A stretch of 64,000 nucleotides of DNA from Minisyncoccota bacterium (GTDB lineage: Bacteria; Patescibacteriota; Minisyncoccia; UBA6257; GWB1-50-10), in contig JAYRXE010000033.1 of NCBI GenBank assembly GCA_041917695.1, positions 38,490-102,489 on the forward strand. Direction: 5' to 3'. Each line of letters begins with the position of its first letter. Positions within the stretch are counted from its first letter, which is position 1. Below the pieces are notes generated by a model. The model made no database searches. It saw only the letters and a program-made list of their open reading frames with translations, and had not been told where the DNA came from. This document shows positions 27,225-64,000 of the stretch, one piece after another. The position numbers and the translations under genes are program-made.

Positions 27225-27272
27225 TTACTGTCAAAAAGGACAGTAATTCAATAACTGACAAAAAGGTCACTT
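27225..27272. promoter_or_regulatory. Two copies of the AACTGNC-N6-GNCA(C/G) repeat family, a candidate enhancer site for the sigma-54 activator and/or terminator hairpins
   Basis: ACTGTCaaaaagGACAGT (6-bp stem) and AACTGACaaaaagGTCAC. The second overlaps the TGA stop of the 27267 gene. Confidence 0.5.
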
Positions 27273-28478
27273 ATTCTTCAGAACGATTTCTATGAAATCT
27301 TCAAGCGGCTCGCCACTGAAAGCCTCCCATACAAGTACCCGCCGATTGGAATAGACCTGACGTAACCGTCGAATCACGTTTTGCTTTACTTCCCGAATCT
27401 CCGGCTCCGGGGACGAGTCGACACCAATCAGGGTGTTCATGGAAGGGATTGCAAAATCTGGCCGAAGGCCCCACCGGTCATCAAAGAGGCATTTTACGAA
27501 GCCGATGCCTGTTTCGCGAAGTTTCAGGGCCAGAGATCGTTCCCCGGTATTTTCTATCGGCATTGGCCAATCGTTTGCGACGATCATCTGAAGAGCGCAT
27601 TTCTTCCAGATTGGCAGTGCGAATTGCTGGTCGTCGAAATCGTTGCGCGCGCCAACGCCGAACAAGAGCCAGGGGCCCACGGTTCCGATGCGTCCGATGC
27701 TGGTCGGCTCAAATGTCGCGCGGTAGGGTTTGTACCTGGGGTTTAGTTCCACAGTCGGGGAAGGGAAGAAGTACGCTGTTCCTTCCGCGGGGCTGTTCAT
27801 CATCTCGGCAAACAACCAGCATTCCGGGGGTAAGTCGATTCTGGTCCACGTCTTCAACCGGTCGTTCAATCCTCGCATTCCGCCCGAGTACAGCTTGAGC
27901 GGAACCCATGAAAAATCGGCCATCGACTGAGATGTTCTGGGGATCCGAATTTTTCTGAGAATTTCCTGAAAGGGATTCCAGAATTCCGAATGGGCCTGCT
28001 TTCCGGTCGGGGTGATCGTTGGTTCAAACGTTCCCCACCCTGCTTCAACGGCCATTCGGTGAAGGGTCGAGAACATCAATTTATTCTTGATGGAATCAAC
28101 CGCGGTCCGTCCTTCGCCGTCACCATCTCCGGTTGCCTCCGGTTTCACCCGGAGAAGGAGTCCGTAGGGGGCTGGCTGGTATGGGTTTTTCCCTCCGCGA
28201 TATTTCCCCGGCTGAATTTCAAAGGTGCAGATCTCGCATTGAATTTCGTCGTCGAAGTCCTGTTTCGGATTTCGCCTCAAAAAGTGAAGATTCTTGCGTT
28301 CGACGACATGAAGGATGCGTCCGCATCGGCAAGAAATCAGTTGTCCGGCCAAGCGGATCTCACCCATCCACTCCTGGGAAATAGGCCAATCCGGATGTTT
28401 CTCGACGAACGCTATTTCTTCCTCGGAGAGAGGACGAATCGCGGCGCTATCCTCGGAACGAAGGAAAGGATCGGGCAT
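27267..28478 (-). CDS. Hypothetical protein with a Cys cluster; last gene of the transfer cluster
   Basis: 403 aa. CRCGRILHV...CEICTF suggests a zinc ribbon. No other motif. Confidence 0.4.
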   Translation of the reverse strand: MPDPFLRSEDSAAIRPLSEEEIAFVEKHPDWPISQEWMGEIRLAGQLISCRCGRILHVVERKNLHFLRRNPKQDFDDEIQCEICTFEIQPGKYRGGKNPYQPAPYGLLLRVKPEATGDGDGEGRTAVDSIKNKLMFSTLHRMAVEAGWGTFEPTITPTGKQAHSEFWNPFQEILRKIRIPRTSQSMADFSWVPLKLYSGGMRGLNDRLKTWTRIDLPPECWLFAEMMNSPAEGTAYFFPSPTVELNPRYKPYRATFEPTSIGRIGTVGPWLLFGVGARNDFDDQQFALPIWKKCALQMIVANDWPMPIENTGERSLALKLRETGIGFVKCLFDDRWGLRPDFAIPSMNTLIGVDSSPEPEIREVKQNVIRRLRQVYSNRRVLVWEAFSGEPLEDFIEIVLKNK

Positions 28479-28481
28479 GGC

Positions 28482-30254
28482 TTATTCGGGAGTTCGACCG
28501 AGTTTTTCTTCGATCTTTCCCCGTTCTTCGGTCGATGACCGGAAATTGCTGACCAGATCACCAAACGAAGAAATCACCGCCTGATGGTATTCCAATTCAT
28601 CAGTTCCCAGTCGGGTCCCGTCTGAAAGGGTTGCCTTGGCGATACGGTGCATCTTTACGACCATCGCCATAAAAGCTGTTTTGTGTTCAGCGAATTCAAT
28701 TGCGTCCTCAGCCGTGATCTCTTCGTCGAGAACCAGCGCGACCAGACTGTCTTCCAGAGTAGTGCAGAATTTTTGAGAATTTGTGTAGCCAATCGTGTCG
28801 TAAAACCTATCCTTATCGAAAGGCTGTTCAGAACTTCCGATAATCGCGGCTCTAAGTTGGTTTCGGTTGGAGATACGGCAAACTTCCATGACCAGTTTCC
28901 GCCCGCCCCCCTTGCCGTTGTTTTTTGAAAAATCGCTGGAGAGGGCCGCTTTCGGCATTCTTCGAGGAGAGATCAGTCGCTGTGCGACAATTGCCTGAAG
29001 GGCCTGGGCGACCTTTGCTCTATTTCCCACCATCTCGATCAGTTTCTGAATGGCGTCGTATGCGGTTGTCGCCGCGTGCATCGTTCCAAGCACAAGATGC
29101 CCGGTCAATGCCAGGTGGACGGCAACCTCGGCGGTGCTCACATCCCTGATCTCGCCAATTGCAACCACATCCGGATCCTGTCGAAGGGCGTTTCTTCCCG
29201 CTTCCGCATAGCTGCGCGCGCACGTACCAATTTCTATTTGCTGAATGGTGGCTTTCTTATGGGAATAAATGATCTCGACGGGGTCTTCAATCGTGACAAT
29301 GTTGACCGGACGCCGTTCGTTCAATTGTTCAATGGTCGCGGCCATTGAGTTTGTCTTCCCGCTCCCGGTTGGCCCGACATACAATACAAGGCCCTGATGG
29401 ATCGCCTGCTGGCAGATGTCTTCCACCAGGCGTTCCCCGACATCGTTGAATCCCAGGCTCCGGACCGACGGTGGCGCCGCCGGAATCTTTCGAATACTTG
29501 CTGCCAGCCCGCGTGCGTTGGGTTCATCCGTAACCACTAAATGGACATTGATTCTTAAACGAGCAAGGAGTTCATTCGACTCTTTTGAGTACACCGAATA
29601 AACGGGATTTACCCCGTCTTCGGGTAAGTGTTTTTCAAAGTTGGGAATTCTGAGACCCTCTTTTTCAAGGTATAAATTTTCAAGATGCTTGAAATAGGTC
29701 GTATTCCTTGTGACTTCACGCAGGAATTCAAGGATTTCCGCTTCGGGCATGACACTGCCTTCTTGAACGGACTCCATTTGTCCTTTCTCGTTGCGGATTT
29801 TGACCTGCCGGTTTGGGAGAATCTGGATGTCGGAGGCTCCGTTATAAACCATCAATTCGATTGTCTCGAACAATCTCCCCGCGGTGAATACATTCGATCT
29901 CTTCGCCGGGGTCCATTCCGAAATCCCTTTTTGGACAAGGCTGATTTCACGTTTGAGCGTCTCAAGAAATGCTTCGTAGGAGTCTCGGGAGTAGCGTGAA
30001 TGAACCGATTCGGGTGGTATGTAGGGCATTTCGAGTAACGCCGTGCTGCCTCGTCCTGCTCGTTTCAATACCTGGTCCAATGGTTCCTTGCTTTTTTCGG
30101 TGTAGGGCGCGACAAAGATATTGACTGATCCTTCACTTCGAATCAGGTGGCCCCCGAGTTCGACCAGGAAGCCGTCAAGATTTTCAGTCTTTGATGCCAA
30201 GATGACGACCTGTGAAGGGCGAAGAAATTGGTTAATTTCCATTTCAATCCTCAT
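28482..30254 (-). CDS. PilT/PilU-like GspE-family secretion ATPase with a ~250-aa N-terminal extension
   Basis: Walker A VGPTGSGKTN. Asp box VTIEDPVEI. Walker B VAIGEIRD. His box TGHLVLGTMHA. No C-terminal tetra-Cys. Confidence 0.8.
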   Translation of the reverse strand: MRIEMEINQFLRPSQVVILASKTENLDGFLVELGGHLIRSEGSVNIFVAPYTEKSKEPLDQVLKRAGRGSTALLEMPYIPPESVHSRYSRDSYEAFLETLKREISLVQKGISEWTPAKRSNVFTAGRLFETIELMVYNGASDIQILPNRQVKIRNEKGQMESVQEGSVMPEAEILEFLREVTRNTTYFKHLENLYLEKEGLRIPNFEKHLPEDGVNPVYSVYSKESNELLARLRINVHLVVTDEPNARGLAASIRKIPAAPPSVRSLGFNDVGERLVEDICQQAIHQGLVLYVGPTGSGKTNSMAATIEQLNERRPVNIVTIEDPVEIIYSHKKATIQQIEIGTCARSYAEAGRNALRQDPDVVAIGEIRDVSTAEVAVHLALTGHLVLGTMHAATTAYDAIQKLIEMVGNRAKVAQALQAIVAQRLISPRRMPKAALSSDFSKNNGKGGGRKLVMEVCRISNRNQLRAAIIGSSEQPFDKDRFYDTIGYTNSQKFCTTLEDSLVALVLDEEITAEDAIEFAEHKTAFMAMVVKMHRIAKATLSDGTRLGTDELEYHQAVISSFGDLVSNFRSSTEERGKIEEKLGRTPE

Positions 30255-30271: not shown

Positions 30272-31666
30272 CTACCTGATTTGGTCGTATTCAAGACACA
30301 ATTCGGTGAAAACCGCGTCTCCACTATTAAAATCCAAATCCTTGATTTCTGATTCGAGGAGATGTTGCACGTCCTCGACCGAGACGTTTCCAGCCGCCTC
30401 ACTGTCTGAAAAGAATACACTCCAGAAGATGACGCCGTTTTCGAAGGCAATGCTGCTGTCTGCAATCATGAGCCTCTTGCCGAGCGCTTCGAAAATCCGG
30501 TTGTAACCCTTCTGCAACCGGTCGGCACCGTAAATTCGGATAATCCGTTCCGCGTCATTGGGGTTTGGGCTAATTCTTACAATCATCCCCTTTGCAAAAG
30601 TCTTCAGTTCCTCAAGCGTCGAAAACTCTGGTTTGCCCTTGATTTCATTCATGGATGATCGGCGGTTACGAAAAGCCCCGAAATGTGCTTCGTGGGGCAC
30701 GTTTTCCGGTATTTCCTGAATGCTTTCGTTTTCGGAAAACATTGTATTCACCCTTTCCTGGTGGACTGGCCGAAGGTCCACGTCAGGTTCAACGTTCGGA
30801 ACGATTTCTTCAAAAGAAGCGATTTCAGGTGTTGTCTGGGCAAAGTCCAAGCCTCCGTTGAAGGCAACTCCCACGGGTACTTGTGGCTCCAGTGGATCTC
30901 CGAGGTTTGGGTCAACGGCAAATATCGGTTCTACCTGAAAACGTTCTTGATCGGGTTTTTCGGAAAATTCCATTGGAACAACGAGGTCCGATTGGGCTGG
31001 TTCAAATCCGGGGGCTTGAAATTCACTGGTGCGCCGTTGGGATCTCCGTTCGGCATCCATTCTTAGCCGATTATATTTGAACACCAATGCAAGTGATTTG
31101 TCCTGAAGGGTCTGAATTTCCGATTCTCGGCCCAGGTAGAGCCTAACCACCGATTGCAACGAATCGGCAAGGCTGTTTCTACTGACAGTTGCGGGAAGCC
31201 CCTTCACGACCCCAAGCGCGAGTTTGTCTTTTCGTTCCGCCCGCAAAAGCAGGAGGGCAGTCGTACCGGTGCAGGCTAAAAAAAATAACCCAAGCCAAAA
31301 AAATCTCGATTTTTCTCTGGCTCTTTCATCCGTTCGCCAAATCAGGCCAAGGGTTCCAAGGAATTTTCTTTGGGCAGTGGCAGGTAAGTTTACAGTTGCG
31401 GATCCTTTTTCCAGGTTTGAGTCGATGATCTTTATGAATTCCCCGTCAGCGTCGATCACCTGAAGGTATGCCGAATCGGAAAGTGCGTCTTTTGCTGAGT
31501 TTTCGAACATTTTCCGGTTCGTCTGAAAGTCTTTGATGGTCGATGAAGCCAGCATTGCCTCGGCATCCGAGAAAAGGTTTCTGCCCGTATCGGATTCCCC
31601 GGCAAGAAGGCTCCACCCAATCACGGCCATCATGAGAACAAGAATCGCCAATCCAGTAACTCTCAT
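30272..31666 (-). CDS. Membrane protein with two TM segments; hypothetical
   Basis: TM helices LAILVLMMAVIGWSLL and FFWLGLFFLACTGTTALLLL. Unknown C-terminal domain. Confidence 0.35.
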   Translation of the reverse strand: MRVTGLAILVLMMAVIGWSLLAGESDTGRNLFSDAEAMLASSTIKDFQTNRKMFENSAKDALSDSAYLQVIDADGEFIKIIDSNLEKGSATVNLPATAQRKFLGTLGLIWRTDERAREKSRFFWLGLFFLACTGTTALLLLRAERKDKLALGVVKGLPATVSRNSLADSLQSVVRLYLGRESEIQTLQDKSLALVFKYNRLRMDAERRSQRRTSEFQAPGFEPAQSDLVVPMEFSEKPDQERFQVEPIFAVDPNLGDPLEPQVPVGVAFNGGLDFAQTTPEIASFEEIVPNVEPDVDLRPVHQERVNTMFSENESIQEIPENVPHEAHFGAFRNRRSSMNEIKGKPEFSTLEELKTFAKGMIVRISPNPNDAERIIRIYGADRLQKGYNRIFEALGKRLMIADSSIAFENGVIFWSVFFSDSEAAGNVSVEDVQHLLESEIKDLDFNSGDAVFTELCLEYDQIR

Positions 31667-32937
31667 TTTGTTCCTCCCGCAAGCGTTCCCACGAGTTGGA
31701 GCAGCGGCATGTACATCCCGATCACGATGTAGCCAACAATGATGCCCAGGACAATTTTCATAACGGGTTCGATGAGCTTGACCAGACGTTCCAGGGACTC
31801 GTCGACCAAGCCTTCGAGTTCGCGTTGAAGGTTATCGAGGTCGCCGGTGGAGCCGGTTGATTCGTATTGCTTCAATGAAGCGTAGAGCGGGGTCGTCCTT
31901 CCAAAAGCAGGGTGGTAATCTGCGAGCTTATCAGCAAGGTTTTTCCCATCAATGATGAAGTCGTCCGCTGCCTTCAATGCGGCTGATCGCAGTTCGAGAT
32001 TTCCGATTGAAGCGGCCGCATAGGTGACCGCTTCTTTGATTTCTCCGGTCGCTGAGACCAGTCCACTCAAAACGCCAACGTATTGAAAACCCGCAATGCG
32101 AACGACGATCCGATTGATGACCGGGATTCGAAGCGACCAATAACTTTCCCACTGCTTCACCCTGAAATCCTTTCGTTTCCAATAGGAATAGCCATAGGGG
32201 ATGGCAACACTGAGAATTATCAAAAGCCACCAGTAAGCATCTATAAATTCTCCTAACCATATCAGGGAAGTTGTCACCGGGTTAATTTTGTCGCCCAGTT
32301 GCGCAAACATGTTCTTGAGTACCGGGATAACGAATTTCAACATGATCCCCAAGACAACTCCGGCAACGACGAGAGTCAGAACGGGCAAGATCAATTCGCT
32401 CTTGATGGTCGCCCAGACCTTCGACATTTTCTCAAGAAACCTTACATGCCGTTCAAGCAAACCGGGAACGTACATCCCGTCAACTGCTTGCCCGGAGTAG
32501 TTCCCGGTTTTTTCCGCGGCGGCTATCATCATGAGGGTCGATCCGTCAAAGACGCCCGGAAACTCATAACAGGCTTCGGCGAAGGTAATTCCTTGCTCCG
32601 ACAAATTGTAAAGTTCGGCAAAGAGCAATCCCGCTTTCGGCGGATTGTCCATTAAATAGGCCATTAAATGATTTTTTCCTTCATTGTAGGTCGCACTCAG
32701 GCGATACCGGCGTGACAGGTAATTTTGGACTGTGATTCCGGCTTTCGTCGAATTGACCAGTTCATTCAGAAAACGAATCCGTTCCCGTTCAGACATTCTG
32801 AAATTTTTACGATCATCTTGTCGTTCGGGATCGTCGTGTCGAAGGCGCTCGACTTTGGCGTAATCGACTCTTTTCTGCTTTTCAAACATTATTTTTATCC
32901 TTCCCTCGGAACGTCGATGATTGGCCCGTTTTCCCAT
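31663..32937 (-). CDS. GspF/PilC-type inner-membrane platform protein
   Basis: Two T2SS-F repeats and TM helices LILPVLTLVVAGVVLGIMLKF, WWLLIILSVAIPY and IVLGIIVGYIVIGMYMPLL. The true start is probably MFEKQK at ~32889. Confidence 0.75.
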   Translation of the reverse strand: MGKRANHRRSEGRIKIMFEKQKRVDYAKVERLRHDDPERQDDRKNFRMSERERIRFLNELVNSTKAGITVQNYLSRRYRLSATYNEGKNHLMAYLMDNPPKAGLLFAELYNLSEQGITFAEACYEFPGVFDGSTLMMIAAAEKTGNYSGQAVDGMYVPGLLERHVRFLEKMSKVWATIKSELILPVLTLVVAGVVLGIMLKFVIPVLKNMFAQLGDKINPVTTSLIWLGEFIDAYWWLLIILSVAIPYGYSYWKRKDFRVKQWESYWSLRIPVINRIVVRIAGFQYVGVLSGLVSATGEIKEAVTYAAASIGNLELRSAALKAADDFIIDGKNLADKLADYHPAFGRTTPLYASLKQYESTGSTGDLDNLQRELEGLVDESLERLVKLIEPVMKIVLGIIVGYIVIGMYMPLLQLVGTLAGGTK

Positions 32938-35400: not shown

Positions 35401-35979
35401 TCAATCCAGGCTCGTGCCCGGCTCGGGGATGTCCACCGGCATGGAAGCCCGCACCGACATCTTCAACGGACCGAACCCATCGCCTTTGACGCTGAATGCC
35501 TGCACGGTCACCAGTTGCGGAAAATCTGCAAGCCAGTCCCCGAAACTTTTCAGGAGGCTGTATTTCCCCGTGAAATCCTGCTTTTCGGGGGTCAGCAGGG
35601 AAATGACCAGGGGAGAAGCGTTAATTCCCGGCCGATAGGGGGGATGTTGCCCATTGAAATCGAGCTTCAGTTTTCTTGTTTTTGCCGCGGCGTTCATTTC
35701 CAGAACAAATTGACCGAAGTTTTCTTCGGAAGGCAGCCGTTTGCGAAGTTCAACGAACTGGTCACGGATGTCGGCACGCTCTTTTTGCAGCTCTTTGAAC
35801 TTGGTCCGCAGGTTGTTATTACGCTCATTGATCAGTTGTTTTTGACTAACTTTCAATGCCAGGGCATCGTTTTTCGCTCGTTGGTCAGCGATATAGTTGG
35901 TATCGCCCACGTACCAAATCGTAAATCCGATGACTGAGGCCAACGCCGTGGCAAAAATCAATTTTGTCGAAAACTTCAT
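35401..35979 (-). CDS. GspM/PilO-like bitopic assembly protein
   Basis: N-terminal TM LIFATALASVIGFTIWYV, then a coiled-coil and a periplasmic domain. 192 aa. Confidence 0.45.
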   Translation of the reverse strand: MKFSTKLIFATALASVIGFTIWYVGDTNYIADQRAKNDALALKVSQKQLINERNNNLRTKFKELQKERADIRDQFVELRKRLPSEENFGQFVLEMNAAAKTRKLKLDFNGQHPPYRPGINASPLVISLLTPEKQDFTGKYSLLKSFGDWLADFPQLVTVQAFSVKGDGFGPLKMSVRASMPVDIPEPGTSLD

Positions 35980-56411: not shown

Positions 56412-57551
56412 CTAGCGAGGACCAAGTGCGGGCGCGCTCGGTGCGTCGGGAAGCTCGCTCGGGCCTTCCATGACTGCTCGAAACGCTTTGTCGGCGTCCG
56501 CGTCGAGTTGGCCCATCAACTGTCCCCAGGCTTTCTGGTTCTCGTCGATCTCTTTGCCGGTCTGCATCATGTATTCAAACTTGACCCGGTTTGCGGCGTA
56601 CAATTCGGCTATTTCCTTGAGTTTGTCAGCGATGTCCGCTTTCAGGCCGACTTCCTGGGCCTCAAGCACATCCAGCCGCTTTTGCAGTTCACGCATTCCT
56701 TCCTGGTCTTGTGTCTGAGCGGTCACCGGTGGCGTGTCAGTTGGGGTACTTCCATCTGGAGCAGGTGTACCCACGCCGACCGAATCACCACTCATCCGGG
56801 TCATTTCTTCTTTGCACCGTTTGATCTTCTCCCGGACGTACGCGATTTGCGCGTTCAGGTCTCCATACCTTTCCCAAAGGAGTGCCATTTTCGGGTCTCT
56901 TTCGAGCATGACCCGGCGTTTCTGCTCGGCGGCATATTCTTGGCGGTAAACCCGGTCCATAAAATCGGTCAGGATTGACCATGCTTCACGAGGATTGAAA
57001 GAACTCCCCATGTTGCGTATCCGATTCAAAGTGTCGATGACCGCCCAACGGGTGTTCCACAGTTGCACTCCGGAGGTGTAGAGCTGGCGAGCGGCCTCGA
57101 TGTGGCGAAACCATTTCAGCAAATTTGCTCGGGTTTTTTCATCCAGTCCGAACCGTGCCGCCGTATATTGGTAAATCCCTCGCAGCGTGGTCAGTTGTTG
57201 CACCAACTTTGTGTATTGGGTGATGTGGGCGGTCCAGCTTTGGATTCTGAAAGCCCATTGTTCAGCCAGTTGTTTGTTCCCAATAGCGTTTGCTTCCTTG
57301 GTCGCTTCTTTTATTTTTTCGAGTTTTTCGTTCGTGCTGTCGGCTTTGTCGTTTGCTTTGGCAAGCTTGTCATTTGCCTTGTCGAGCGCCCCGCCCATGT
57401 TTTTGTCAAATGCTTTGACGGCCGTCAGCAATGCCACTCCATCAAAAATGGCTGGTACTTTTTCGGTAAACAACGCTCCCGAGGGGAGGGGCCCGGCGAC
57501 CCAAAACGCACAAAAGGCTGCCATTACGATTGTCTGTACCATTTTTTTCAT
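56412..57551 (-). CDS. TrbJ/VirB5-like secreted coiled-coil protein
   Basis: Signal peptide MKKMVQTIVMAAFCAFWVAG, extended coiled-coil. Position between the VirB4 and VirB6 homologues. Confidence 0.4.
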   Translation of the reverse strand: MKKMVQTIVMAAFCAFWVAGPLPSGALFTEKVPAIFDGVALLTAVKAFDKNMGGALDKANDKLAKANDKADSTNEKLEKIKEATKEANAIGNKQLAEQWAFRIQSWTAHITQYTKLVQQLTTLRGIYQYTAARFGLDEKTRANLLKWFRHIEAARQLYTSGVQLWNTRWAVIDTLNRIRNMGSSFNPREAWSILTDFMDRVYRQEYAAEQKRRVMLERDPKMALLWERYGDLNAQIAYVREKIKRCKEEMTRMSGDSVGVGTPAPDGSTPTDTPPVTAQTQDQEGMRELQKRLDVLEAQEVGLKADIADKLKEIAELYAANRVKFEYMMQTGKEIDENQKAWGQLMGQLDADADKAFRAVMEGPSELPDAPSAPALGPR

Positions 57552-60420
57552 CGTTGTTTCTCCATTTGATCCGCGTAGATGTTCAGGGCCGCAAGGTCCT
57601 CGTCCGTCAGGCGGGTTTTGCGTTCAAAGGCCAAGCCACGCGGGTAACGGTTGGCAAGGAAGGTGATTGCCAGAACCGAGTTCCCCAATTTTTCCCGAAC
57701 CGCCCGCAAGACAGTGACTTCGTTCGGCTCGCTCGTGAACGTCCAGAGGTAGTAATCGGACAGTTCGAGCTGGAAGAGGTCGGACCTTTGGGAAACTCCC
57801 TCCCCGGTCACCATCACGAACTGGGCATGACTGCCGGGGAGGTTCGAAATGTTTTCAATCCCGGCCGCCGCATCCTTTGAGATGGAAAAGTCTGAAATCA
57901 TCTTTGAATAGTCCCCATTCTGGCGACCGATGATTTTCAGACCGACGTGTTCCACGATGTTTTTCAGGCCGTCGACCTGTTTTGCGTTTTGAGCGATGAA
58001 AAGGGTTCGTACGTTTTCTTTTCGGCCCTGAAACGCCCCCTTCGAGATGGCGTAAAGAATCTCGGGGTAATCGCTGGCGATCCGGCCCATCTCGTCAAAG
58101 ATGTTCAGACGGGGAAGGCGTTCACCACCTTTGGACGGACCGATTGCTCGGGTGGTCCGGACGGCAACGCGGTACGCCAGCGACCGCCGAACATCTTCGG
58201 GGAACAGGGCCAAAGACTCCATGTCGTAAACGATCAGCGATGAGTCGGTGAGGTAGGACGGATCCATTCGGTTATCCAGCCAAGGGTTCCCCCTGTAACG
58301 TCGAAGCCGAAGCAGAATATCCTGGGCTTTACCCTTGATCGTTTCGCTGTCGAATGCGCCGCCGCCGCACCATTGTTCAAGGGCTTCGATGAAGTCACTC
58401 AGGATGGGTTCTTTTTTCGATTCCGTTTGAAATGCCCGGTTGTGAGCGCAGGCCCCGGTGTAGACCTCGCGGACCACCGGTTCCAGAATGCCGTCGGCGA
58501 GGCTGTCGTGAATGTCGATGCCGGCAAGGGCTTTCAGGTCACCAAGAACGAGTGTGACCTGTTCTTCCTCGACCGGGAGTCCCTCTCGAAGGCCATCGTA
58601 GTATCCGATGTTGAACCCCTTTTTGATTTTGGGATCGAATTGAAAAAGAAGTCCCCCGGTAACCTCAGCCATTGTTTTGAAACTGTTGAAATCGACGATT
58701 TGAACTTTGGCGGTCGGATGGGTCGCCAAGGTATCGAGGCCCAGGACTCCGGCGAGGACTGATTTCCCCGATCCCGTTTCCCCGAACAGCGCTGTCCCCG
58801 GCGCTCTGGTCGTACCCGCTTCAAAAAGGTCGATCCCCGTCAGTTCTCCGGTCTGAGCGCGAAAAAACGTATGCGGGACGGCGGAGGGCGACCACGCTTT
58901 CTCGACATTGATGAACGTGGCGACCGACTGGGCAATTTCCTCGATTTCACGCCCACTTTTCGATCCCGAGATTTCACCAACGAGCAAGCCGGGATAGAGA
59001 CAGAGCGCAGCCGAACGGTTTTCCCGTATCGCGTTGACGCCGGGAATATCCCGACATGAATTAAGGACGGCCTTGGCTCGGCGATCCAGGGCGTCGCTCA
59101 AGTCTTCGGGCAGTTCTTTTTGTTTGCTGAAGTCCGCGGCTTGCTTCGGAGAGAGAGGTTCGCCGTAAACCAGGATGATTTTTTTGCAGGACATGATCTG
59201 GGTTTGGCCGGTGGCCATGTCTCCGCGAAGCGCGTCCAATTCGGCGATCTGTTGTCCGGCTTCCTTGGTCGCGCCGCCGCCGAAAAGATTTCCGCCGGCG
59301 CGGGTCGTCCATTCAATTTTCCGGTCATACAGTTTACGGCGCTGCATCTGGTCGACGACTTCGAGTTCGGTGACGAACGTATGCCGGAACAGGAGTCGTG
59401 GGTTCATTGAGAGCGGGCGCATCACCGTGGGGAATGTACCCGAACGCTTTCCGTCACCCGAGGATTGGGGCGGCGTTGTCATCGAGACGATGGCGACTGG
59501 AGTCCGGCCATGAACGATGGCATCGTCGCCGAACACAATTCTTTCGTCGGAAAGGTAGCGACCGATGTCGTCGGTGATACTCGGTGTTCGTGGAGATGAG
59601 ACTGCCAATTCGTTATGGCTGAAAAAAATCGCGTCCCACAATTCCGAGGATGTGAATCGGCGAATTTCAAAGGGGCAGTTTCGGAGGACCTGTTGAAAAA
59701 TATCTTCGGCTTTTTTTCGTGCGGCATTTTCTTCGGCGATCATTCTCCGGACGAGTTCATTTTCCTGGAGGCAGTCCAGGATAGCTTTCACATCAAACCT
59801 GCCCCGAGTTTTCAGGACAGTTTTCACTTGGAGCATCATCTCGTGGAATGCCAGTTTTATCCCCGGACTGAGCGTCCCCGTTGGAACCCGTACCCACAGG
59901 GTATGCCTCGAACTTTTGAATTCACCGGATTCGATTTTTGCGTTCAAATATTTCAGGTTGCGGGCATGAAGTTCTTGGCAGGCCCCAACCTTTTTTGAGG
60001 GGGATAAACGAGAAAGGTGGTTTCTTAAATTTGTTCCCTCGTCGATATTTACGGACTGTCTGAATTGATAAATCGTCCCGACGGGAGCCTCATTGGTGAG
60101 CCACGTCACCGTGCGCCGGTGATCTTCAGCGATGGTGTCATCGTGGGCAAAAAGGCTCTCCATCGGGGTTAATTCAAAACCGGCGACAAATGCTCCATCC
60201 GTTTGGCGAATGGCGTTTCTGTCGACGGAAAGGCAACGACTTTCCAGGCGGTGTCCATTCGGCGCCTTTCCGGGAACCAAGGGGAGGTCGCCGGCGCCAG
60301 GCGCGAAGAGATCGCGTAAGGCGGGAATTGCGGCGCGTGATGCTTTCATCGAGAAGTAGGTGCTGAAAGCAGCGACCCCCGTGTAGCTTAGTCCCATCAG
60401 AATTTCGTCAATGCCGTTCA
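57548..60420 (-). CDS. VirB4/TrbE conjugative T4SS ATPase
   Basis: Walker A GETGSGKSVLAG. Walker B LNIFDEMGRI. ~950 aa. ATGA overlap with the virB3 stop. ATG at 60418-60420 (MNGIDEILMGLSYTG...). Confidence 0.85.
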
Positions 60421-60744
60421 TTGTTCTTGTATCCAGTTTCTTGGCTTGATTTGGTTTGGTCGGTCGAATTGCTTCGGCGAAACCAGGTAACGGAAGAAAT
60501 GGTGAGCAAACCGTCTGGGTTTCCCAATCCTTGCCCATGCAAAAAATCCGGAAACCCCGCAGAAACTCCCGATGGCAACCAGATACCAGGCCGGAAATCC
60601 TGCCACCATCGTTCGAGCAAACCAGAAGGGAAGCGTGACCAGAAAGGTCAGGATCAGGACGATTGGCCAATCCTCAATGGCTACGCCAAAACGAATCACC
60701 GGTTGGAAGATCATCGGTCGAACAGGGTACGTTGGTTTTGACAT
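60418..60744 (-). CDS. VirB3/TrbD-like small membrane protein
   Basis: 108 aa with two TM helices (WPIVLILTFLVTLPFWF, LVAIGSFCGVSGFFAW). Sits between the pilin and VirB4. Confidence 0.6.
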   Translation of the reverse strand: MSKPTYPVRPMIFQPVIRFGVAIEDWPIVLILTFLVTLPFWFARTMVAGFPAWYLVAIGSFCGVSGFFAWARIGKPRRFAHHFFRYLVSPKQFDRPNQIKPRNWIQEQ

Positions 60745-60761: not shown

Positions 60762-61136
60762 TTAGAAATTCAAACCAGGGATCGGGGCGGATTCGCCTCG
60801 ACCGATGAGAGTACCCAGCGCCTGCCAGCCCTCATACGTGAGCAAGCAGACTCCGATGGCCATTGTCTTCCAACCACCTGAATTGAAGGTCATGAGTCCA
60901 TACAGGAAAAAACAGACCCCGGCGATGGCCGCCACGTAACGGGCGATGATCAACAGGGTTCTGCCAGAGTTGAGGGGGGCTGCCGGGTTGCCGGTGAAAA
61001 CCGACCCTTGCGCGAAGACGTGATTGAGTGACCCGAGTGCGACGACGAGTGCGACGACGACACAGGTGCGAAGTACGGCTTTGTGGAGATCAGGCGAGGC
61101 AAGGTAACCCGCCAACCTTTTGAGCTTGAACTTCAT
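60762..61136 (-). CDS. VirB2/TrbC-type conjugative pilin
   Basis: Long leader ending VFAQG. Mature part has two hydrophobic helices LLIIARYVAAIAGVCFFLYGLM and TMAIGVCLLTYEGWQALGTLIG separated by TFNSGGWK. AAGGAG RBS 7 nt upstream of ATG 61134-61136. Confidence 0.7.
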   Translation of the reverse strand: MKFKLKRLAGYLASPDLHKAVLRTCVVVALVVALGSLNHVFAQGSVFTGNPAAPLNSGRTLLIIARYVAAIAGVCFFLYGLMTFNSGGWKTMAIGVCLLTYEGWQALGTLIGRGESAPIPGLNF

Positions 61137-61186: not shown

Positions 61187-61189
61187 CTA

Positions 61190-61206
61190 ATCAAGTTGTG
61201 TGCCAG
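61190..61206 (-). promoter_or_regulatory. Sigma-54-like -24/-12 promoter candidate for the pilin/VirB/giant-gene operon
   Basis: Minus strand CTGGCACACAACTTGAT has TGGCAC-N5-TTGA, with -12 GA instead of GC. Upstream of it lie the tandem 29-bp repeats and a gene encoding a GAFTGA activator. Confidence 0.45.
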
Positions 61207-61251
61207 AGTTTTCTCTCGCCCTAAACTATTGAAAAATAAGGAATCTTGATT

Positions 61252-61309
61252 CTTCTAAAACTGTCGAAAGTGTCACTTATTTCTAAAACTGTCGAAAGTG
61301 TCACTTATT
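61252..61309. promoter_or_regulatory. Two perfect tandem 29-bp direct repeats, a candidate enhancer for the adjacent sigma-54 activator
   Basis: TTCTAAAACTGTCGAAAGTGTCACTTATT appears twice. It is 45-115 bp upstream of the -24 element, and the second copy overlaps the TAA stop of the activator gene. Confidence 0.7.
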
Positions 61310-64000
61310 TGGCGGATGGTTTCTTCCCTCTTTTCGATCTGATCCGGTCTGGGACTTTGCCGAGCTTTCGGAACATGGATCGTTCGATAAGGCCGGGATG
61401 AAGTTGGATTACATCCTTCCAGCTTCCACAAATTTCAAATTCGTAAGTGAGAAGGCGGAGTATGAAAAGGCGCTCTGCTTCTCTGAGAGAGACTCCCTCA
61501 AATTCTCGAAGGTCAAGGAAATGATTCTGCTCCGGGGTTTCCTGGGTCGCCCGGCTTGGTGAGGAGGCGGCGGATATCTTTCCCTGAAAATGGTACGGTT
61601 GAATTACCTTCTCTTCGGTACCCAAAAGTGCGGTAACACTTCCAATCTGGTTTTCCAGTTCCCGAATATTCCCCTTCCATTGTTGGTTTGAAAGGTATTC
61701 CAAGGCCGCCTGGCTGATTTGCAACTCACTATTCTCCTTGGCGAGAAAATGGTTTACGAGAAGGGGAATATCCTCGCGGCGTTCTCGCAGAGGGGGAATC
61801 TCGATGGTGACAACCTTCAGTCGCTGGTAGAGGTCGGAACGAAATGAACCTCTTGAAATTTCCTCTTCCAGGTTTCGGTTGGTGGCTGCGATGACACGGA
61901 CATCGACCTTGTCCTCCGTTTCTCCGCCAACGGCTTTAACCACGCCTTCTTGCAGGAAGCGCAAAAGATTGGCTTGAAGGTCGATTGGCAATTCACCGAT
62001 TTCGTCAAGAAAGAGAGTTCCCCCGTCACTGGCTCGAATCGCGCCAAGACGGTTTTCGTTTGCCCCTGTGAAAGCTCCTTTTCGGTGTCCGAATAACTCC
62101 GACTGGATCAGCTCCCTGGAAATTGCGCCACAATTCAGTGCTGTGAAGACCCGGTCACTCCGTGGGCTGACCTGGTGAACTGCCCGCGCCATGACCTCCT
62201 TGCCGGTCCCGGTTTCCCCGGTGATCAAGACTGGCTTCTCACTCCCGTTTTCTTTGAGTCGCGCAACGATTTCCAGAATCGGTTGAAGGCCTCTTGAATT
62301 CCCGACGATCCCGTTTTCAAATCCGATTTTTTGATCAAAATAAAATTCACTGGTTTTGCTAAAGGGTTCAAGTTGCTTCACGCGGGCTGAAAAGGCTCGG
62401 CGTTCACGCTCGATTTCGACTGTTTTCAGGGCCAGCGCACTCCCTCCCGTACCCAGGAAAACCCATCCTTCGGACTGCGCCTCAATCTCGAACTGGAAAA
62501 ATCCGAATGGTATTTTCCCTTCAAGGGCTTCCTCGATGAACCGGTTAAAAATCGTTTCATCCCCGGCTGAACCAAAAACGTCCCGTCCGTTTACTTTATT
62601 TCGGTAGACCAAGCCAAACCAGTTCTGGGAACGGCACAGGAAGAGAAATTCCTTGGCGAATTTTTCCGGGTCTTCGTATTCGGCGAAGAGCGAGGTCAAA
62701 TCCGGAATGGAAAAGACGATATCTGTTGAAGTTGCAGTTTCCTCTTCAGTCCATTCAAGTCCGATCCGTTTTTCAATTCGGCCAATTCGTTCCAGCGTTT
62801 CGGTAACCCCTTCCTCGTTCCCCTGGCGGCGGCAAAGTTCAAGAAAGCGGACGTTGCCGAGCCAGGTGAACAGGGGCTGATCTTCTGAGTCCTTGATGAC
62901 TTTCTTGTAATTGAGAACCGCGCCCATGAACGCCCCTGGCCCTTTTTTTTCCTGGTCGTACCCGGCCCATAATCTATTGGCAAGTTCTCCAAGGTGGTTG
63001 GTTGGTCCATCAATATTCAGCAGTCCTCGGGTGTGTGGAGGTATCGTTCCGGGACCGGCTGATGATTGGTTGTAGAACTCCCGAAATCTTTCCATCTCGG
63101 GTTTGTCCTTTCCGGAAAGCACGCGGACAAATTTTCCGCCCGCCAGAATCGAGAACGCGAAACCGCGTTTCCAACTCAGTCGGGTATCGACCAAAAGGTC
63201 GTTGATATCCCTCACTTTGCGAAAGGGAACGCGGATGAAGCCCCGAGACGCTTCCTGGATGGCCCACAGAATCCATTCGTCATCCGGTCCGATTGATCCC
63301 GCGTTTCCCGACACAACCTGTTCGGCTTTCGAAACCGCTTCGCGCCAACGGAGAAAAATACCGTTGACACAGGCTGACAGGATTAAGGCATCAGCCAAAA
63401 GATCCGGCCGGTGAGTGATTCCTTCGATTTCCAATTCGGAACATCGGCGTAGACTTTCCGGCTGGTTCCCGGATGCGACCGCCGCTCGAACCCCAACTTC
63501 CAGTAATTGATAGATCCATATCTGATCGTTTTCTGCCTTTGCGATAGCGCTTCCCGCGTCAATCGTTCTGAAGGCAAGGTCATAATTTCCGCTTTCAAGG
63601 GCGGCGACCGCCCGCCAGAATGCACCTTCTACTCTGCGACTAAAACCCAGTCTGAAGAAGTCTTCGTCGATAAATCCAAGTGCTCGATCCCACTGGCGAC
63701 CAGCCACGGCGCAGCGTCCCAGGATAAGTTTGCCGGATCGGTCGTCGATTCCCGCCAGCTTGGCGGTTTCCAGGTATTCGGAAGCGAACCTACTTGCGTA
63801 CAGGCTATTCCCAGCCAGTTCGTACAATCTTGCAAGAATGATCATTCGGTGGGCAATTTCCTGAGTTTCGACCGGTTGAAGCCCGCGTTCGATGATTGAA
63901 AGGGCATCATTGACGGCGATTTCCGCTGGCGAGAGTTCCAGGGTTCGATCCCAATAGCCCCAGGCATCCCGGAATCTTCCACCTTCCAGTGATTGGAGGA
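61305..64000 (-). CDS. Sigma-54-dependent transcriptional activator (bacterial enhancer-binding protein) with a long TPR-like N-terminal region; the 5' end lies beyond the window
   Basis: AAA+ sigma-54 interaction domain VLITGETGTGKEVMARAVH, GAFTGA, TLFLDEIGELPIDLQANLLRFLQEG, VRVIAATNRNLEE. The frame stays open to position 64000. Confidence 0.85.
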   Translation of the reverse strand, partial: LQSLEGGRFRDAWGYWDRTLELSPAEIAVNDALSIIERGLQPVETQEIAHRMIILARLYELAGNSLYASRFASEYLETAKLAGIDDRSGKLILGRCAVAGRQWDRALGFIDEDFFRLGFSRRVEGAFWRAVAALESGNYDLAFRTIDAGSAIAKAENDQIWIYQLLEVGVRAAVASGNQPESLRRCSELEIEGITHRPDLLADALILSACVNGIFLRWREAVSKAEQVVSGNAGSIGPDDEWILWAIQEASRGFIRVPFRKVRDINDLLVDTRLSWKRGFAFSILAGGKFVRVLSGKDKPEMERFREFYNQSSAGPGTIPPHTRGLLNIDGPTNHLGELANRLWAGYDQEKKGPGAFMGAVLNYKKVIKDSEDQPLFTWLGNVRFLELCRRQGNEEGVTETLERIGRIEKRIGLEWTEEETATSTDIVFSIPDLTSLFAEYEDPEKFAKEFLFLCRSQNWFGLVYRNKVNGRDVFGSAGDETIFNRFIEEALEGKIPFGFFQFEIEAQSEGWVFLGTGGSALALKTVEIERERRAFSARVKQLEPFSKTSEFYFDQKIGFENGIVGNSRGLQPILEIVARLKENGSEKPVLITGETGTGKEVMARAVHQVSPRSDRVFTALNCGAISRELIQSELFGHRKGAFTGANENRLGAIRASDGGTLFLDEIGELPIDLQANLLRFLQEGVVKAVGGETEDKVDVRVIAATNRNLEEEISRGSFRSDLYQRLKVVTIEIPPLRERREDIPLLVNHFLAKENSELQISQAALEYLSNQQWKGNIRELENQIGSVTALLGTEEKVIQPYHFQGKISAASSPSRATQETPEQNHFLDLREFEGVSLREAERLFILRLLTYEFEICGSWKDVIQLHPGLIERSMFRKLGKVPDRIRSKRGKKPSAK

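What the first reader, a model, noticed from the sequence alone, without database searches (positions are those of the whole stretch)
27267..64000. Sigma-54-controlled chimeric transfer apparatus: Trb-type T4SS components (VirB2-B6) followed by a secretin/GspE/GspF/GspL-M/PilT module with no VirB7-B11 or VirD4 in view
A ~37-kb run of minus-strand genes follows the Ti/IncP trb order trbC-trbD-trbE-trbJ-trbL, encoding pilin, VirB3, VirB4, TrbJ-like and TrbL-like proteins. Where trbF/G/H/I (VirB8, VirB9, VirB7, VirB10) would normally come, it instead encodes a 4243-aa relaxase-primase-methylase-helicase protein. This is followed by a complete type-IV-filament-style envelope machine. That machine comprises a secretin, a PilP-like protein, GspL-like and GspM-like proteins, a GspE ATPase with zinc site, a GspF platform and a PilT-like retraction ATPase. 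No class-III (GFTLIE) prepilin, prepilin peptidase, VirB9/B10 outer-membrane core complex, VirB11 or VirD4 coupling protein is recognisable in the window, and the only filament subunit is the VirB2-type pilin. The whole block is preceded by a GAFTGA sigma-54 activator and carries three -24/-12 promoters. This looks like a T4SS whose outer-membrane and energising parts have been replaced or supplemented by a secretin-based system. It could be a DNA/protein transfer system not matching described MPF types.
Basis: partly seen in the sequence, partly recalled or inferred. Interest (0 to 1): 0.9.

Follow-up and report, generated by a model that had tools for sequence, protein, structure and literature searches.

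The report
Sigma-54-controlled conjugative plasmid with extra pilus machine
This is the transfer region of a conjugative plasmid from an uncultured soil bacterium: its DNA-transfer machine is complete, because the parts that looked missing lie just past the window end, and it also carries a rare type-IV-pilus-like machine with no pilin gene, all switched on by one plasmid-encoded sigma-54 activator.

Summary
The idea that a secretin system replaced the T4SS outer-membrane and energising parts is refuted.

A Logan contig from the same sequencing run joins the window end through a 28-nt palindrome. It carries a divergent operon: SLT/VirB1, a VirB8-family protein, a VirB9-position protein, VirB10 (fold-confirmed), an AAA+ ATPase and a VirD4 coupling protein. 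The only close relative (62% VirB4 identity) has the same order.

Fifty soil-metagenome relatives of this very divergent T4SS keep both divergent operons. None has a secretin, PilB/C/T or activator gene within 10 kb. The secretin module is therefore an add-on, not a substitute.

The module is a real type-IV-filament machine: PilQ-like secretin, PilM-N fusion, PilO, PilB/GspE-like, PilC-like and PilT-like proteins. No prepilin or prepilin peptidase was found in 76 kb. It belongs to a very rare family.

Four sigma-54 promoters, each with an upstream palindrome and an IHF-like block, precede T4SS operon 1, T4SS operon 2, the secretin module and a plasmid rep gene. Their positions are conserved in the relative.

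Verdict: a new variant of a known theme (conjugative element plus accessory type IV pilus), of moderate interest.

The parts
61305..64000 (-). Sigma-54 enhancer-binding protein with a GAFTGA motif. The gene runs on to about 64037, giving about 910 aa.
   Evidence: Pfam Sigma54_activat 2.5e-64 and AAA_lid_14. GAFTGA is visible in the translation. The start was inferred from Logan contig L002, which extends 95 nt past the window. The ortholog in the relative is 47% identical.
61190..61294 (-). Sigma-54 promoter P1 (TGGCACACAACTTGAT, 61205-61190), with an imperfect upstream palindrome at 61271-61294 and an IHF-like A/T block between them. It lies in front of the pilin-VirB3-VirB4 operon.
   Evidence: A promoter at the same position is found in the relative (L003 9228-9243).
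60762..61136 (-). VirB2/TrbC-type pilin candidate, about 124 aa counted from the ATG that follows an AAGGAG ribosome-binding site.
   Evidence: Signal-like segment plus two hydrophobic helices. First gene before the VirB3-like and VirB4 genes. 57% identical in the relative. No Pfam hit, so the label rests on topology and position only.
60418..60744 (-). VirB3-like small protein with two membrane helices.
   Evidence: Topology. Its stop overlaps the VirB4 start. Detected next to VirB4 in 44 related loci.
57548..60421 (-). Divergent VirB4/TraC ATPase, 957 aa.
   Evidence: NCBIfam TraC-F-type 3.9e-9 and VirB4_CagE 2.5e-8, both far below cut-off. The family profile hits PDB 4AG5 VirB4 at 1.6e-5. 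The Walker A motif GETGSGKS is visible in the translation. Only two 90% clusters exist among 5.8 billion proteins. Fifty metagenome relatives at 28-37% identity.
56412..57551 (-). Secreted coiled-coil protein at the TrbJ/VirB5 position, 379 aa.
   Evidence: Signal peptide. Only coiled-coil-type weak hits. 70% identical in the relative. One distant tblastn match in L008.
54409..56385 (-). Polytopic membrane protein at the VirB6/TrbL position, 658 aa.
   Evidence: Signal peptide plus at least five membrane segments. Homologs follow VirB4 in 21 related loci. Pfam TrbL is not significant: 1 of 16 members at E 0.087.
41665..54396 (-). Giant 4243-aa multidomain protein: N-terminal MobL-type relaxase, primase-polymerase, methyltransferase-like region and SNF2/DEAD helicase.
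   Evidence: Pfam. PDB NrS-1 primase-polymerase 6e-14 over residues 351-585. The motif HASIHRDTDNPHIHITY is visible in the translation. Residues 4-137 align, at 30% identity, to the N-terminus of the L008 protein that carries Relaxase/MobL hits. An ortholog of 4237 aa is present in the relative.
41324..41427 (-). Sigma-54 promoter P2 (TGGCACGCGGTTTGTC, 41339-41324), with palindrome TGTCAGTTTTTCAATAACTGACA at 41405-41427. It lies in front of the secretin module.
   Evidence: A promoter at the same position is found in the relative (L007 4332-4347).
40517..40708 (-). Small conserved ORF of 62 aa immediately upstream of the secretin gene. Possibly a ribbon-helix-helix DNA-binding protein.
   Evidence: tblastx gives 54% identity over 48 aa with the relative. 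The fold assignment is my inference from the sequence pattern only.
38703..40520 (-). Outer-membrane secretin, PilQ-like, 605 aa.
   Evidence: Pfam Secretin 1.1e-32 and Secretin_N. NCBIfam PilQ 2e-64 over the whole model, but below cut-off; GspD 7e-40. 67% identical in the relative.
38152..38706 (-). Periplasmic protein at the PilP position, 184 aa: signal peptide, Pro-rich linker and a C-terminal domain.
   Evidence: Sequence features. Position between the secretin and the PilM-N fusion. 54% identical in the relative and 30% in distant module L063. No family hit.
36647..38155 (-). PilM-PilN fusion with GspL-like architecture, 502 aa.
   Evidence: AlphaFold model with mean pLDDT 80.8: an actin-like cytoplasmic domain, a membrane/coiled-coil helix and a C-terminal alpha/beta domain. 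Foldseek top hits are PilM (1.5e-9) and EpsL/PulL cytoplasmic domains. Only 10 representatives exist among 1.84 billion proteins.
35976..36647 (-). Cytoplasmic 223-aa protein whose N-terminus is homologous to a repeat in the N-terminal region of the assembly ATPase.
   Evidence: BLASTP 9e-9, 30% identity over 97 aa. No membrane segment. No family hit.
35401..35979 (-). PilO/GspM-type bitopic protein, 192 aa.
   Evidence: Pfam PilO 3.1e-7. N-terminal membrane segment. 70% identical in the relative.
32895..35348 (-). Assembly ATPase of the PilB/GspE type, 817 aa.
   Evidence: Pfam T2SSE 1.1e-30. PDB PilF/PilB/GspE 9e-21 to 1e-17. NCBIfam GspE 5.7e-34 and PilB 3.4e-30. CPTC at residue 546 and CPDC at 674.
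31663..32937 (-). Platform protein of the PilC/GspF type, 424 aa.
   Evidence: Pfam T2SSF 3.5e-18. NCBIfam PilC 4e-35 and GspF 1e-34.
30272..31666 (-). Conserved 464-aa membrane protein of unknown function with two membrane segments.
   Evidence: Topology. 31-34% identical in the relative. A protein of similar layout follows the platform gene in distant module L063. No family hit.
28482..30254 (-). PilT/PilU-family retraction-type ATPase with a 230-aa N-terminal extension, 590 aa.
   Evidence: PDB PilT 1e-40, DotB 1e-20, VirB11 2.5e-7. NCBIfam pilT_fam 4.5e-56, TraJ 2.9e-28, VirB11 2.9e-9.
27267..28478 (-). Conserved cytoplasmic 403-aa protein of unknown function; last gene of the module.
   Evidence: 62% identical in the relative. 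No membrane segment. No family hit.
27158..27260 (-). Sigma-54 promoter P3 (perfect TGGCACGAGGGTTGCA, 27173-27158), with a palindrome at 27238-27260. It points towards the rep gene.
   Evidence: A promoter at the same position is found in the relative (L007 18216-18231).
25412..26506 (-). Plasmid replication-protein homolog, 364 aa.
   Evidence: tblastn matches in 1302 plasmid records, about 30% identity over 85-97% of the query, annotated 'replication protein'. 55% identical in the relative.

Best explanation
The window holds most of the transfer backbone of a conjugative plasmid from an uncultured soil bacterium.

The plasmid encodes a complete but very divergent type IV secretion system, split into two divergent operons around a plasmid-borne sigma-54 activator gene.
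- Operon 1, inside the window: pilin, VirB3-like, VirB4, a TrbJ-position protein, a VirB6-position protein, then a 4243-aa relaxase/primase-polymerase/methylase/helicase.
- Operon 2, starting about 230 nt past the window end: SLT/VirB1, a VirB8-family protein, a VirB9-position protein, VirB10, an AAA+ ATPase, a small membrane protein and a VirD4 coupling protein.

A ten-gene type-IV-filament machine has been added downstream of the relaxase gene in this sub-lineage only. It comprises a secretin, a PilP-position protein, a PilM-N fusion, PilO, a PilB/GspE-like ATPase, a PilC-like platform, a PilT-like ATPase and three conserved proteins of unknown function.

The activator binds a palindrome about 65-90 nt upstream of four -24/-12 promoters and switches on both T4SS operons, the pilus-type machine and a rep gene together. 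The promoter architecture is shown; activator binding is inferred.

Inferred function: the added machine builds a retractable pilus that finds and pulls in recipient cells, as the thin pili of IncI plasmids and PAPI-1 promote mating. DNA itself passes through the VirB-type channel. No pilin or prepilin peptidase gene is present in the 76 kb examined. The subunits would therefore come from the host chromosome or from an unseen part of the plasmid.
For: Join beyond the window:
- Logan contig L006 comes from the same sequencing run as L002, which matches the window with no mismatch over 16453 nt. L006 overlaps the window extension by a 28-nt perfect palindrome.
- The VirB4, VirB10 and PilB-like proteins are each recorded on an NCBI contig of the same length, 120489 bp.

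Content of L006:
- SLT 6e-23; T4CP (T4SS-DNA_transf 2.5e-28, TrwB, TraG-D_C); ParB.
- VirB10: the AlphaFold C-terminal domain has pLDDT about 90, and all 17 Foldseek hits with E <= 5e-4 are VirB10/TraF/CagY/DotG/TraB.
- VirB8: 9 of 23 family members hit Pfam VirB8, best 6e-5.

Synteny:
- The relative has the same gene order across about 50 kb at 27-70% identity, in two other sequencing runs.

The secretin module is an add-on:
- In the 50 loci found by the metagenome scan, plus two found earlier, both T4SS operons are conserved. There are zero tblastn hits to any secretin-module protein or to the activator.

Regulon:
- Four TGGCAC-N5-TTG sites sit at conserved positions in both elements.
- The palindrome occurs exactly four times in 76 kb, always upstream of these sites. 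My estimate of the chance expectation is about 0.1.
- An IHF-like block is present in all eight promoters, and the relative uses a different palindrome.

Module identity.

Plasmid nature: rep homolog and ParB.
Against: - The join to L006 rests on a 28-nt palindromic overlap plus synteny and matching contig length. I could not read the 120-kb NCBI contig itself.
- The VirB9- and VirB6-position proteins gave no sequence-level match.
- No VirB11 homolog is present in the T4SS operons.
- No pilin or peptidase was found, so a filament is assumed rather than shown. About 44 kb of this contig and 10 kb of the relative's contig were not seen.
- Distant homologs of the module exist with no T4SS gene in the 10 kb seen downstream. 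The module can therefore work outside conjugation.
- A role in mating is inferred only from co-regulation, synteny and analogy.
Confidence: 0.62

Rival explanations
1. The secretin module is self-contained cargo that serves the host or plasmid outside DNA transfer, for example in adhesion, twitching, biofilm formation or secretion. It merely shares the activator with the transfer genes.
For: T4SS relatives function without it. Distant homologous modules (L063, L064) lie next to helicase and NACHT genes, with no T4SS gene in the sequence seen. The module has its own promoter.
Against: It is inserted inside the transfer backbone, between the relaxase and rep genes. That position is kept in a relative whose proteins are only 27-70% identical. 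It also carries the same element-specific palindrome as both T4SS operons.
Confidence: 0.25
2. One reading: a chimeric apparatus in which the secretin, GspE/F/L/M-like and PilT-like proteins replace VirB7-B11 and VirD4 as the outer-membrane conduit and energiser.
For: Inside the window no VirB8-B11 or VirD4 gene is recognisable. No VirB11 homolog was found in the T4SS operons either. The PilT-like ATPase has weak TraJ/DotB/VirB11 similarity.
Against: VirB1, a VirB8-family protein, VirB10 with a conserved C-terminal barrel, and VirD4 are encoded directly beyond the window and in the relative. The whole T4SS family operates without any secretin module.
Confidence: 0.03
3. The module is a competence-like or DNA-release machine that moves DNA through the secretin, acting in parallel with conjugation.
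For: The secretin also matches the DNA-uptake porin HofQ (9e-33), and the ATPases match ComGA. A retraction ATPase is present.
Against: No ComEA/ComEC-type genes turned up in any Pfam scan. No pilin was found. These matches are weaker than those to PilQ and PilT.
Confidence: 0.07

Closest known systems
Conjugative elements with an accessory type IV pilus: the IncI1 R64 / IncI2 TP114 thin pilus, and the PAPI-1 type IVb pilus (PMC9045228, PMC5297154)
   Same: A conjugative T4SS, relaxase and coupling protein sit together with a separate secretin/ATPase/platform pilus machine on the same element. In the known cases the pilus brings donor and recipient together.
   Different: - The known systems are type IVb. 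They encode their own prepilin (PilS), peptidase (PilU) and adhesin (PilV). To my knowledge they have no PilT-type ATPase.
- This module scores best against type IVa parts: PilQ, PilM-N, PilO and PilT.
- It has no pilin or peptidase gene in view.
- It has no close homolog on any of 72,556 plasmids; the best match is 24-27% identity over less than half of the ATPase.
- It is sigma-54 controlled.
VirB/Trb (MPF-T) and other described MPF classes of conjugative T4SS (PMC3548315, PMC4027160)
   Same: The inventory is the same: pilin, VirB3, VirB4, a VirB5/TrbJ-position protein, a VirB6-position protein, VirB1, VirB8, a VirB9-position protein, VirB10, VirD4 and a relaxase. The order of operon 1 matches trbC-D-E-J-L.
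   Different: - VirB4 is not recognised by Pfam and scores 33-35 bits against NCBIfam models whose cut-offs are 567-643 bits.
- Only two weak plasmid matches exist in PLSDB.
- An AAA+ (MadB/MoxR-like) ATPase takes the place where VirB11 might be expected.
- The genes are arranged as two divergent operons.
- The relaxase is fused into a 4243-aa polyprotein.
Type IVa pilus machine (PilMNOPQ, PilB, PilC, PilT) and the type II secretion system (GspD, E, F, L, M)
   Same: It has a secretin, an alignment subcomplex, an assembly ATPase with two CxxC pairs, a platform protein and a retraction-type ATPase.
   Different: - PilM and PilN are fused, as in GspL.
- All genes lie in one compact operon.
- No pilins, pseudopilins or peptidase are present.
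- It has three extra conserved proteins of unknown function.
- Every component scores below the curated family cut-offs.
Sigma-54/EBP control of pilus genes (PilR-type regulation of pilin expression; from my own knowledge)
   Same: A GAFTGA activator, an upstream palindrome, an IHF-like site and a -24/-12 promoter.
   Different: Here the activator is plasmid-encoded and governs the whole conjugation apparatus, a rep gene and the pilus machine. I found no paper describing sigma-54-controlled conjugation.

Membership tests
Conjugative type IV secretion system (any MPF class) | VirB4-family ATPase | tested here: met
   Weak but specific TraC/VirB4 NCBIfam hits. The family profile hits PDB VirB4 4AG5 at 1.6e-5. 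It is conserved next to VirB3-, VirB8- and VirB10-like genes in 50 loci.
Conjugative type IV secretion system (any MPF class) | Type IV coupling protein (VirD4/TraG/TraD) | tested here: met
   An 807-aa protein at L006 6274-8697, equivalent to about 70341-72764 in window numbering. T4SS-DNA_transf 2.5e-28, TrwB_AAD_bind 3.6e-20, TraG-D_C 9e-19. It lies outside the window.
Conjugative type IV secretion system (any MPF class) | Relaxase | tested here: inconclusive
   MobL hit at 3.9e-4, below cut-off. A histidine motif is visible. The N-terminus aligns at 30% identity with a relative's Relaxase/MobL protein. No oriT or nic site was identified.
Conjugative type IV secretion system (any MPF class) | Outer-membrane core: VirB10 | tested here: met
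   The top 17 Foldseek hits of the P0006 model are all VirB10 homologs, E 9e-8 to 5e-4. Relatives carry Pfam TrbI.
Conjugative type IV secretion system (any MPF class) | VirB8 | tested here: met
   Bitopic topology. 9 of 23 family members hit Pfam VirB8, best 6.1e-5. The protein of this plasmid itself gives no hit.
Conjugative type IV secretion system (any MPF class) | VirB9 and VirB7 | tested here: inconclusive
   A secreted two-domain 462-aa protein lies between the VirB8- and VirB10-like genes. Pfam and PDB profile searches find nothing. VirB7 was not searched for.
Conjugative type IV secretion system (any MPF class) | VirB11-type ATPase | tested here: not met
   No T2SSE-family ATPase is present in either T4SS operon. 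An AAA+ MadB-like ATPase is there instead. Several described MPF classes also lack VirB11 (from my own knowledge).
MPF-T (VirB/Trb) class specifically | VirB4/TrbE scoring as a member of the class | tested here: not met
   TIGR00929 gives 32.6 bits against a cut-off of 643. There is no Pfam CagE_TrbE_VirB hit. A proper VirB4 phylogeny or CONJscan run was not possible.
Type IVa pilus machine | Secretin, PilM/N/O alignment proteins, PilB, PilC, PilT | tested here: met
   All hits are at superfamily level and below the equivalog cut-offs.
Type IVa pilus machine | Major pilin with a class-III signal peptide (G-1, E+5, hydrophobic helix) | tested here: not met
   A relaxed six-frame scan of window plus L006 (76 kb), L007, L061 and L063-L065 gives only internal membrane helices or, in L061 and L065, short out-of-context reading frames; no prepilin N-terminus. 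About 44 kb of the contig was not seen.
Type IVa pilus machine | Prepilin peptidase (PilD, Peptidase_A24) | tested here: not met
   No such hit in any Pfam scan of the window or of L006, nor among the precomputed Pfam annotations of genes called in the relative's loci.
Type II secretion system | Pseudopilins GspG-K and GspC | tested here: not met
   Same scans as for pilins. No GspC-type hit.
IncI/PAPI-1-type conjugative type IVb pilus | PilS prepilin, PilU peptidase, PilV adhesin, and homology to the R64 pil genes | tested here: not met
   No pilin or peptidase. The best plasmid matches of the ATPase and the secretin are generic GspE/PilQ at 24-31% identity.
Sigma-54-dependent regulon | EBP with GAFTGA; -24 GG / -12 TG(C) promoters; upstream activator sites | tested here: met
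   The -12 element is TTGC in two promoters and TTGA or TTGT in the other two. A host rpoN gene and actual dependence on it cannot be tested with these tools.

The most novel reading that the evidence does not exclude
A so-far undescribed class of conjugation machinery from soil bacteria has, in one plasmid lineage, recruited a pilin-less, retraction-competent type-IV-filament machine. This machine polymerises pilins it does not encode (host pilins or a non-canonical subunit) into a mating pilus. The whole apparatus, including a replication gene, is fired as one sigma-54 regulon by a plasmid-encoded activator that co-evolves with its own binding palindrome.
Probability: 0.25. Interest if true: 0.7.

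Novelty: new variant of a known kind. Interest (0 to 1): 0.45.

Why it matters
- The apparent hybrid secretion system, which would have been remarkable, is explained away. The T4SS is complete once the 9 kb beyond the window is read.
- The remaining points are of real but moderate interest. First, the conjugative T4SS family is invisible to standard profiles, absent from 72,556 sequenced plasmids and common in soil metagenomes.
- Second, the entire transfer apparatus appears to be under sigma-54/EBP control, with four matched promoter and palindrome sets. This gives a clean and testable regulatory model.
- Third, the type-IV-filament machine belongs to a very rare family and has no pilin or peptidase gene in the sequence seen. 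If it uses host pilins, that would be a new way for a plasmid to obtain a mating pilus.

Tried and rejected
- Exact look-up of the activator protein found nothing, because the window ORF is truncated at its start.
- The genome-contig scan returned only a 2.4-kb contig, 99% identical, titled as an Actinomycetota MAG with 'WN_Acidobacteria_scaffold' in its name. The host stays uncertain and no flanks were gained.
- The Myxococcus plasmid TraC hit (25% identity) has an uninformative neighbourhood.
- PDB profile searches for the VirB8- and VirB9-position families found nothing. Pfam found nothing for the VirB9- and VirB6-position families.
- A PDB sequence search with the VirB10 family profile also failed, although the fold search succeeded.
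- The proteins of 403, 464, 223 and 184 aa and their orthologs gave no Pfam hit even at E 1, and no NCBIfam hit at E 0.1.
- No tRNA and no Rfam family is present in the window, so there is no sign of an integration site.
- A strict TGGCAC-N5-TTGCW search finds only one promoter inside the window. The looser TGGCAC-N5-TTG form was needed, and it was justified by positional conservation in the relative.
- Rejected: the PilT-like ATPase as the missing VirB11. T4SS relatives lack it, and it scores far better as PilT.
- Rejected: the 464-aa protein as an odd pilin. It has G5 but no E+5, and it has a second membrane segment.
- Literature searches found no description of this arrangement.

Full report
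**1. What is in the window**

From 64000 down to 25412 there is an almost gap-free run of minus-strand genes.

Secretin module:
- The 605-aa protein is a secretin (Pfam Secretin 1.1e-32 plus Secretin_N). Its best NCBIfam match is PilQ (2e-64, whole model, below cut-off).
- The 192-aa protein hits PilO.
- The 817-aa ATPase is closest to PilF/PilB/GspE (PDB about 1e-20). It has two CxxC pairs.
- The 424-aa protein is a PilC/GspF platform.
- The 590-aa ATPase is PilT-like. PilT scores 1e-40, against DotB 1e-20 and VirB11 2.5e-7.
- The 502-aa protein was modelled with an 11-sequence alignment (mean pLDDT 80.8). It is an actin-like cytoplasmic domain, a membrane helix and a small periplasmic domain. 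Its best structural matches are PilM and the cytoplasmic domain of EpsL/PulL. It is therefore a PilM-PilN fusion of the GspL kind.
- The 223-aa protein is cytoplasmic and shares a domain with the N-terminal repeats of the assembly ATPase. It is not GspM-like.

T4SS side:
- The 957-aa protein is a very divergent VirB4.
- The pilin, VirB3-, TrbJ- and TrbL-like proteins fit by size, topology and position only.

Giant protein (4243 aa):
- It has a solid primase-polymerase domain.
- It has weaker relaxase, methylase and helicase signals.
- Its N-terminus aligns with the Relaxase/MobL-bearing protein of a distant relative.

**2. The missing T4SS parts lie just outside the window**

- The VirB4 protein exists in only two 90% clusters among 5.8 billion proteins: itself, and a 62%-identical relative.
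- In the relative (Logan SRR29398968 contig_21, 62.9 kb), the activator gene is followed by a divergent operon. It encodes SLT, proteins of 255 and 485 aa, a 457-aa TrbI/TraM-like protein, an AAA ATPase, a 235-aa protein, a 784-aa coupling protein, and then ParB.
- The ortholog of the TrbI-like protein in this genome (P0006, 50% identical) is recorded on a contig of 120,489 bp. That is the same length as for the window's VirB4 and PilB-like proteins.
- P0006 lies on Logan contig L006, from the same run as L002. L002 matches the window with no mismatch over 16,453 nt and extends it to 64095.
- The 5' ends of L006 and L002 overlap by a perfect 28-nt palindrome. This explains the assembly break and fixes the orientation.
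- In window numbering the genes beyond the end are:
  - SLT/VirB1, 64230-64913
  - a VirB8-family protein, 64917-65699
  - a secreted 462-aa protein at the VirB9 position, 65705-67093
  - VirB10, 67107-68534
  - an AAA+ ATPase, 68534-69625
  - a 234-aa membrane protein
  - VirD4, 70341-72764
  - ParB on the other strand
- Evidence for the identities:
  - VirD4: T4SS-DNA_transf 2.5e-28, TrwB and TraG-D_C.
  - VirB10: a confident C-terminal barrel whose 17 best PDB matches are all VirB10 homologs.
  - VirB8: 9 of 23 family members hit Pfam VirB8.
  - VirB9: position and topology only.

**3. The secretin module is an addition, not a substitute**

- A metagenome scan with a four-sequence VirB4 alignment recovered 50 loci, mostly soil, at 28-37% identity.
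- tblastn with every protein of the window and of L006 shows the same two divergent operons throughout. One holds the VirB3-like, VirB4 and VirB6-position genes. The other holds SLT, VirB8-like, the VirB9-position gene, VirB10, the AAA ATPase and the T4CP.
- There is not a single hit to the secretin, PilB-, PilC-, PilT- or PilO-like proteins, the PilM-N fusion, the proteins of unknown function, or the activator. This includes seven loci with a full 10 kb on each side.
- In these relatives a roughly 1900-2200-aa relaxase follows the coupling protein.
- The T4SS family therefore works without any secretin system. The lineage of this plasmid gained the module and the activator.

**4. The juxtaposition is not accidental**

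- In the diverged relative every gene from rep to ParB is in the same order, at 27-70% protein identity.
- Four TGGCAC-N5-TTG sites stand in front of the pilin operon, the SLT operon, the secretin module and the rep gene. They occupy the same four positions in the relative.
- In this plasmid a palindrome, TGTCAGTTATT-N1-2-AATAACTGACA, occurs exactly four times in 76 kb when up to five substitutions are allowed. Each copy lies about 65-90 nt upstream of one of these promoters.
- An A/T-rich block resembling an IHF site lies between palindrome and promoter in all eight cases.
- The relative has a different palindrome (TTCCKGA-N5-xGGAA type) at the same places. This fits co-evolution of each activator with its own sites.
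- This is the classical architecture of sigma-54 promoters. It argues that the T4SS, the pilus-type machine and rep are fired together.

**5. Nature and rarity of the module**

- All components score best against type IVa pilus or T2SS families, but below the curated cut-offs.
- No plasmid in PLSDB carries a close homolog.
- The PilM-N fusion has only ten representatives among 1.84 billion cluster representatives.
- Two distant ones sit in similarly compact modules: secretin, 186 aa, 487 aa, PilO, ATPase, platform and a 400-aa membrane protein.
- A relaxed six-frame scan for prepilin N-termini (G/A/S, four residues, E, then a hydrophobic helix) found none. It covered 76 kb of this plasmid, about 52 kb of the relative and the distant modules. 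No prepilin peptidase appears in any Pfam scan.
- Every known type-IV-filament machine needs pilins. The subunits must therefore be encoded elsewhere: on the host chromosome, in the unseen 44 kb of the contig, or in the unseen 10 kb of the relative.

**6. Most likely mechanism**

- Shown: a plasmid backbone (rep homolog; ParB) with a complete divergent T4SS, a relaxase polyprotein, a coupling protein, a type-IV-filament machine with assembly and retraction ATPases, and a four-promoter sigma-54 architecture.
- Inferred, step 1: on a signal sensed by the roughly 500-aa N-terminal region of the activator, all four units are transcribed.
- Inferred, step 2: the relaxase nicks and pilots the DNA to VirD4 and through the VirB-type channel.
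- Inferred, step 3: the polyprotein's primase, methylase and helicase domains act in the recipient, as known for transferred primases and anti-restriction proteins (from my own knowledge).
- Inferred, step 4: the pilus-type machine makes a retractable fibre that captures recipients, by analogy with the R64/TP114 and PAPI-1 pili (PMC9045228, PMC5297154).
- The main rival is that the module is co-regulated cargo with a function outside DNA transfer.

**7. Comparison and verdict**

- The kind of system, a conjugative element with an accessory type IV pilus, is known.
- The differences are several:
  - The pilus machine is type IVa/T2SS-like rather than type IVb.
  - It has a PilT-type ATPase.
  - It has no pilin or peptidase genes.
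  - The T4SS is not recognised by standard profiles.
  - An AAA+ ATPase is present and VirB11 is absent.
  - A plasmid-borne sigma-54 activator controls the whole set. I found no published precedent for this.
- I rate it a new variant of a known kind, with interest about 0.45.

Noticed in passing
window 27238-27260, 41405-41427, 61271-61294; and 64070-64093 just beyond the window (L006 3-26): The palindrome TGTCAGTTATT-N1-2-AATAACTGACA occurs exactly four times in 76 kb. Each copy lies upstream of a sigma-54 promoter, with an IHF-like A/T block between them. The relative carries a different palindrome at the same four places. These are probably activator binding sites that co-evolve with the activator.
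   Followed up: partly
window 40517-40708 (-): The 105-aa ORF is over-called. Only its last 62 codons are conserved in the relative (54% identity). The sequence pattern suggests a ribbon-helix-helix DNA-binding protein encoded just before the secretin gene.
   Followed up: partly
window 40903-40919 (-): A 17-nt block, CAAAAGATAACTTTTTT, is identical in this plasmid and the relative, inside an otherwise diverged intergenic leader between the relaxase gene and the secretin module. It could belong to oriT or to a regulatory site.
   Followed up: no
window 25412-26506 (-) and 26433-26891 (+): The 364-aa protein is a plasmid replication-protein homolog that sits downstream of a perfect sigma-54 promoter. 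In this plasmid, but not in the relative, an opposite-strand Cro/C1-type HTH gene lies between promoter and rep.
   Followed up: partly
L006 4467-5558 (about 68534-69625 in window numbering) and homologs in 23 loci: An AAA+ ATPase whose best NCBIfam match is the MadB family (9e-30) is a conserved member of this T4SS family's second operon, directly after VirB10. Its role is unknown.
   Followed up: no
window 1-19000: A mosaic region with GC swinging between 32% and 61%. It holds a truncated Tn3-family transposase, a tyrosine integrase, TniB, an HsdM N-terminal fragment, a metallophosphatase-STAND NTPase (1056 aa) and an RNase T-SUKH fusion. It looks like an accessory or cargo region of the plasmid.
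   Followed up: partly
window 19624-23490 (-): A 1288-aa secreted protein with five BACON repeats and C-terminal repeats rich in '[12 protein letters not shown]'. It lies next to a 297-aa protein with a nuclease-like D...D/ExK pattern. It is not known whether either is conserved in the relative.
   Followed up: no
L063 (JGI 3300045107) and L064 (Logan SRR27730048): Distant homologs of the secretin module occur as compact operons without pilin genes, next to a DEAD helicase and a NACHT/HEAT histidine-kinase protein. They may represent an undescribed small family of type-IV-filament systems.
   Followed up: partly
L005 (JAAFHI010000936.1): A 2.4-kb contig 99% identical to the VirB4 gene sits in a MAG labelled Actinomycetota, while the scaffold name says Acidobacteria. 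The binning and the host assignment are doubtful.
   Followed up: no
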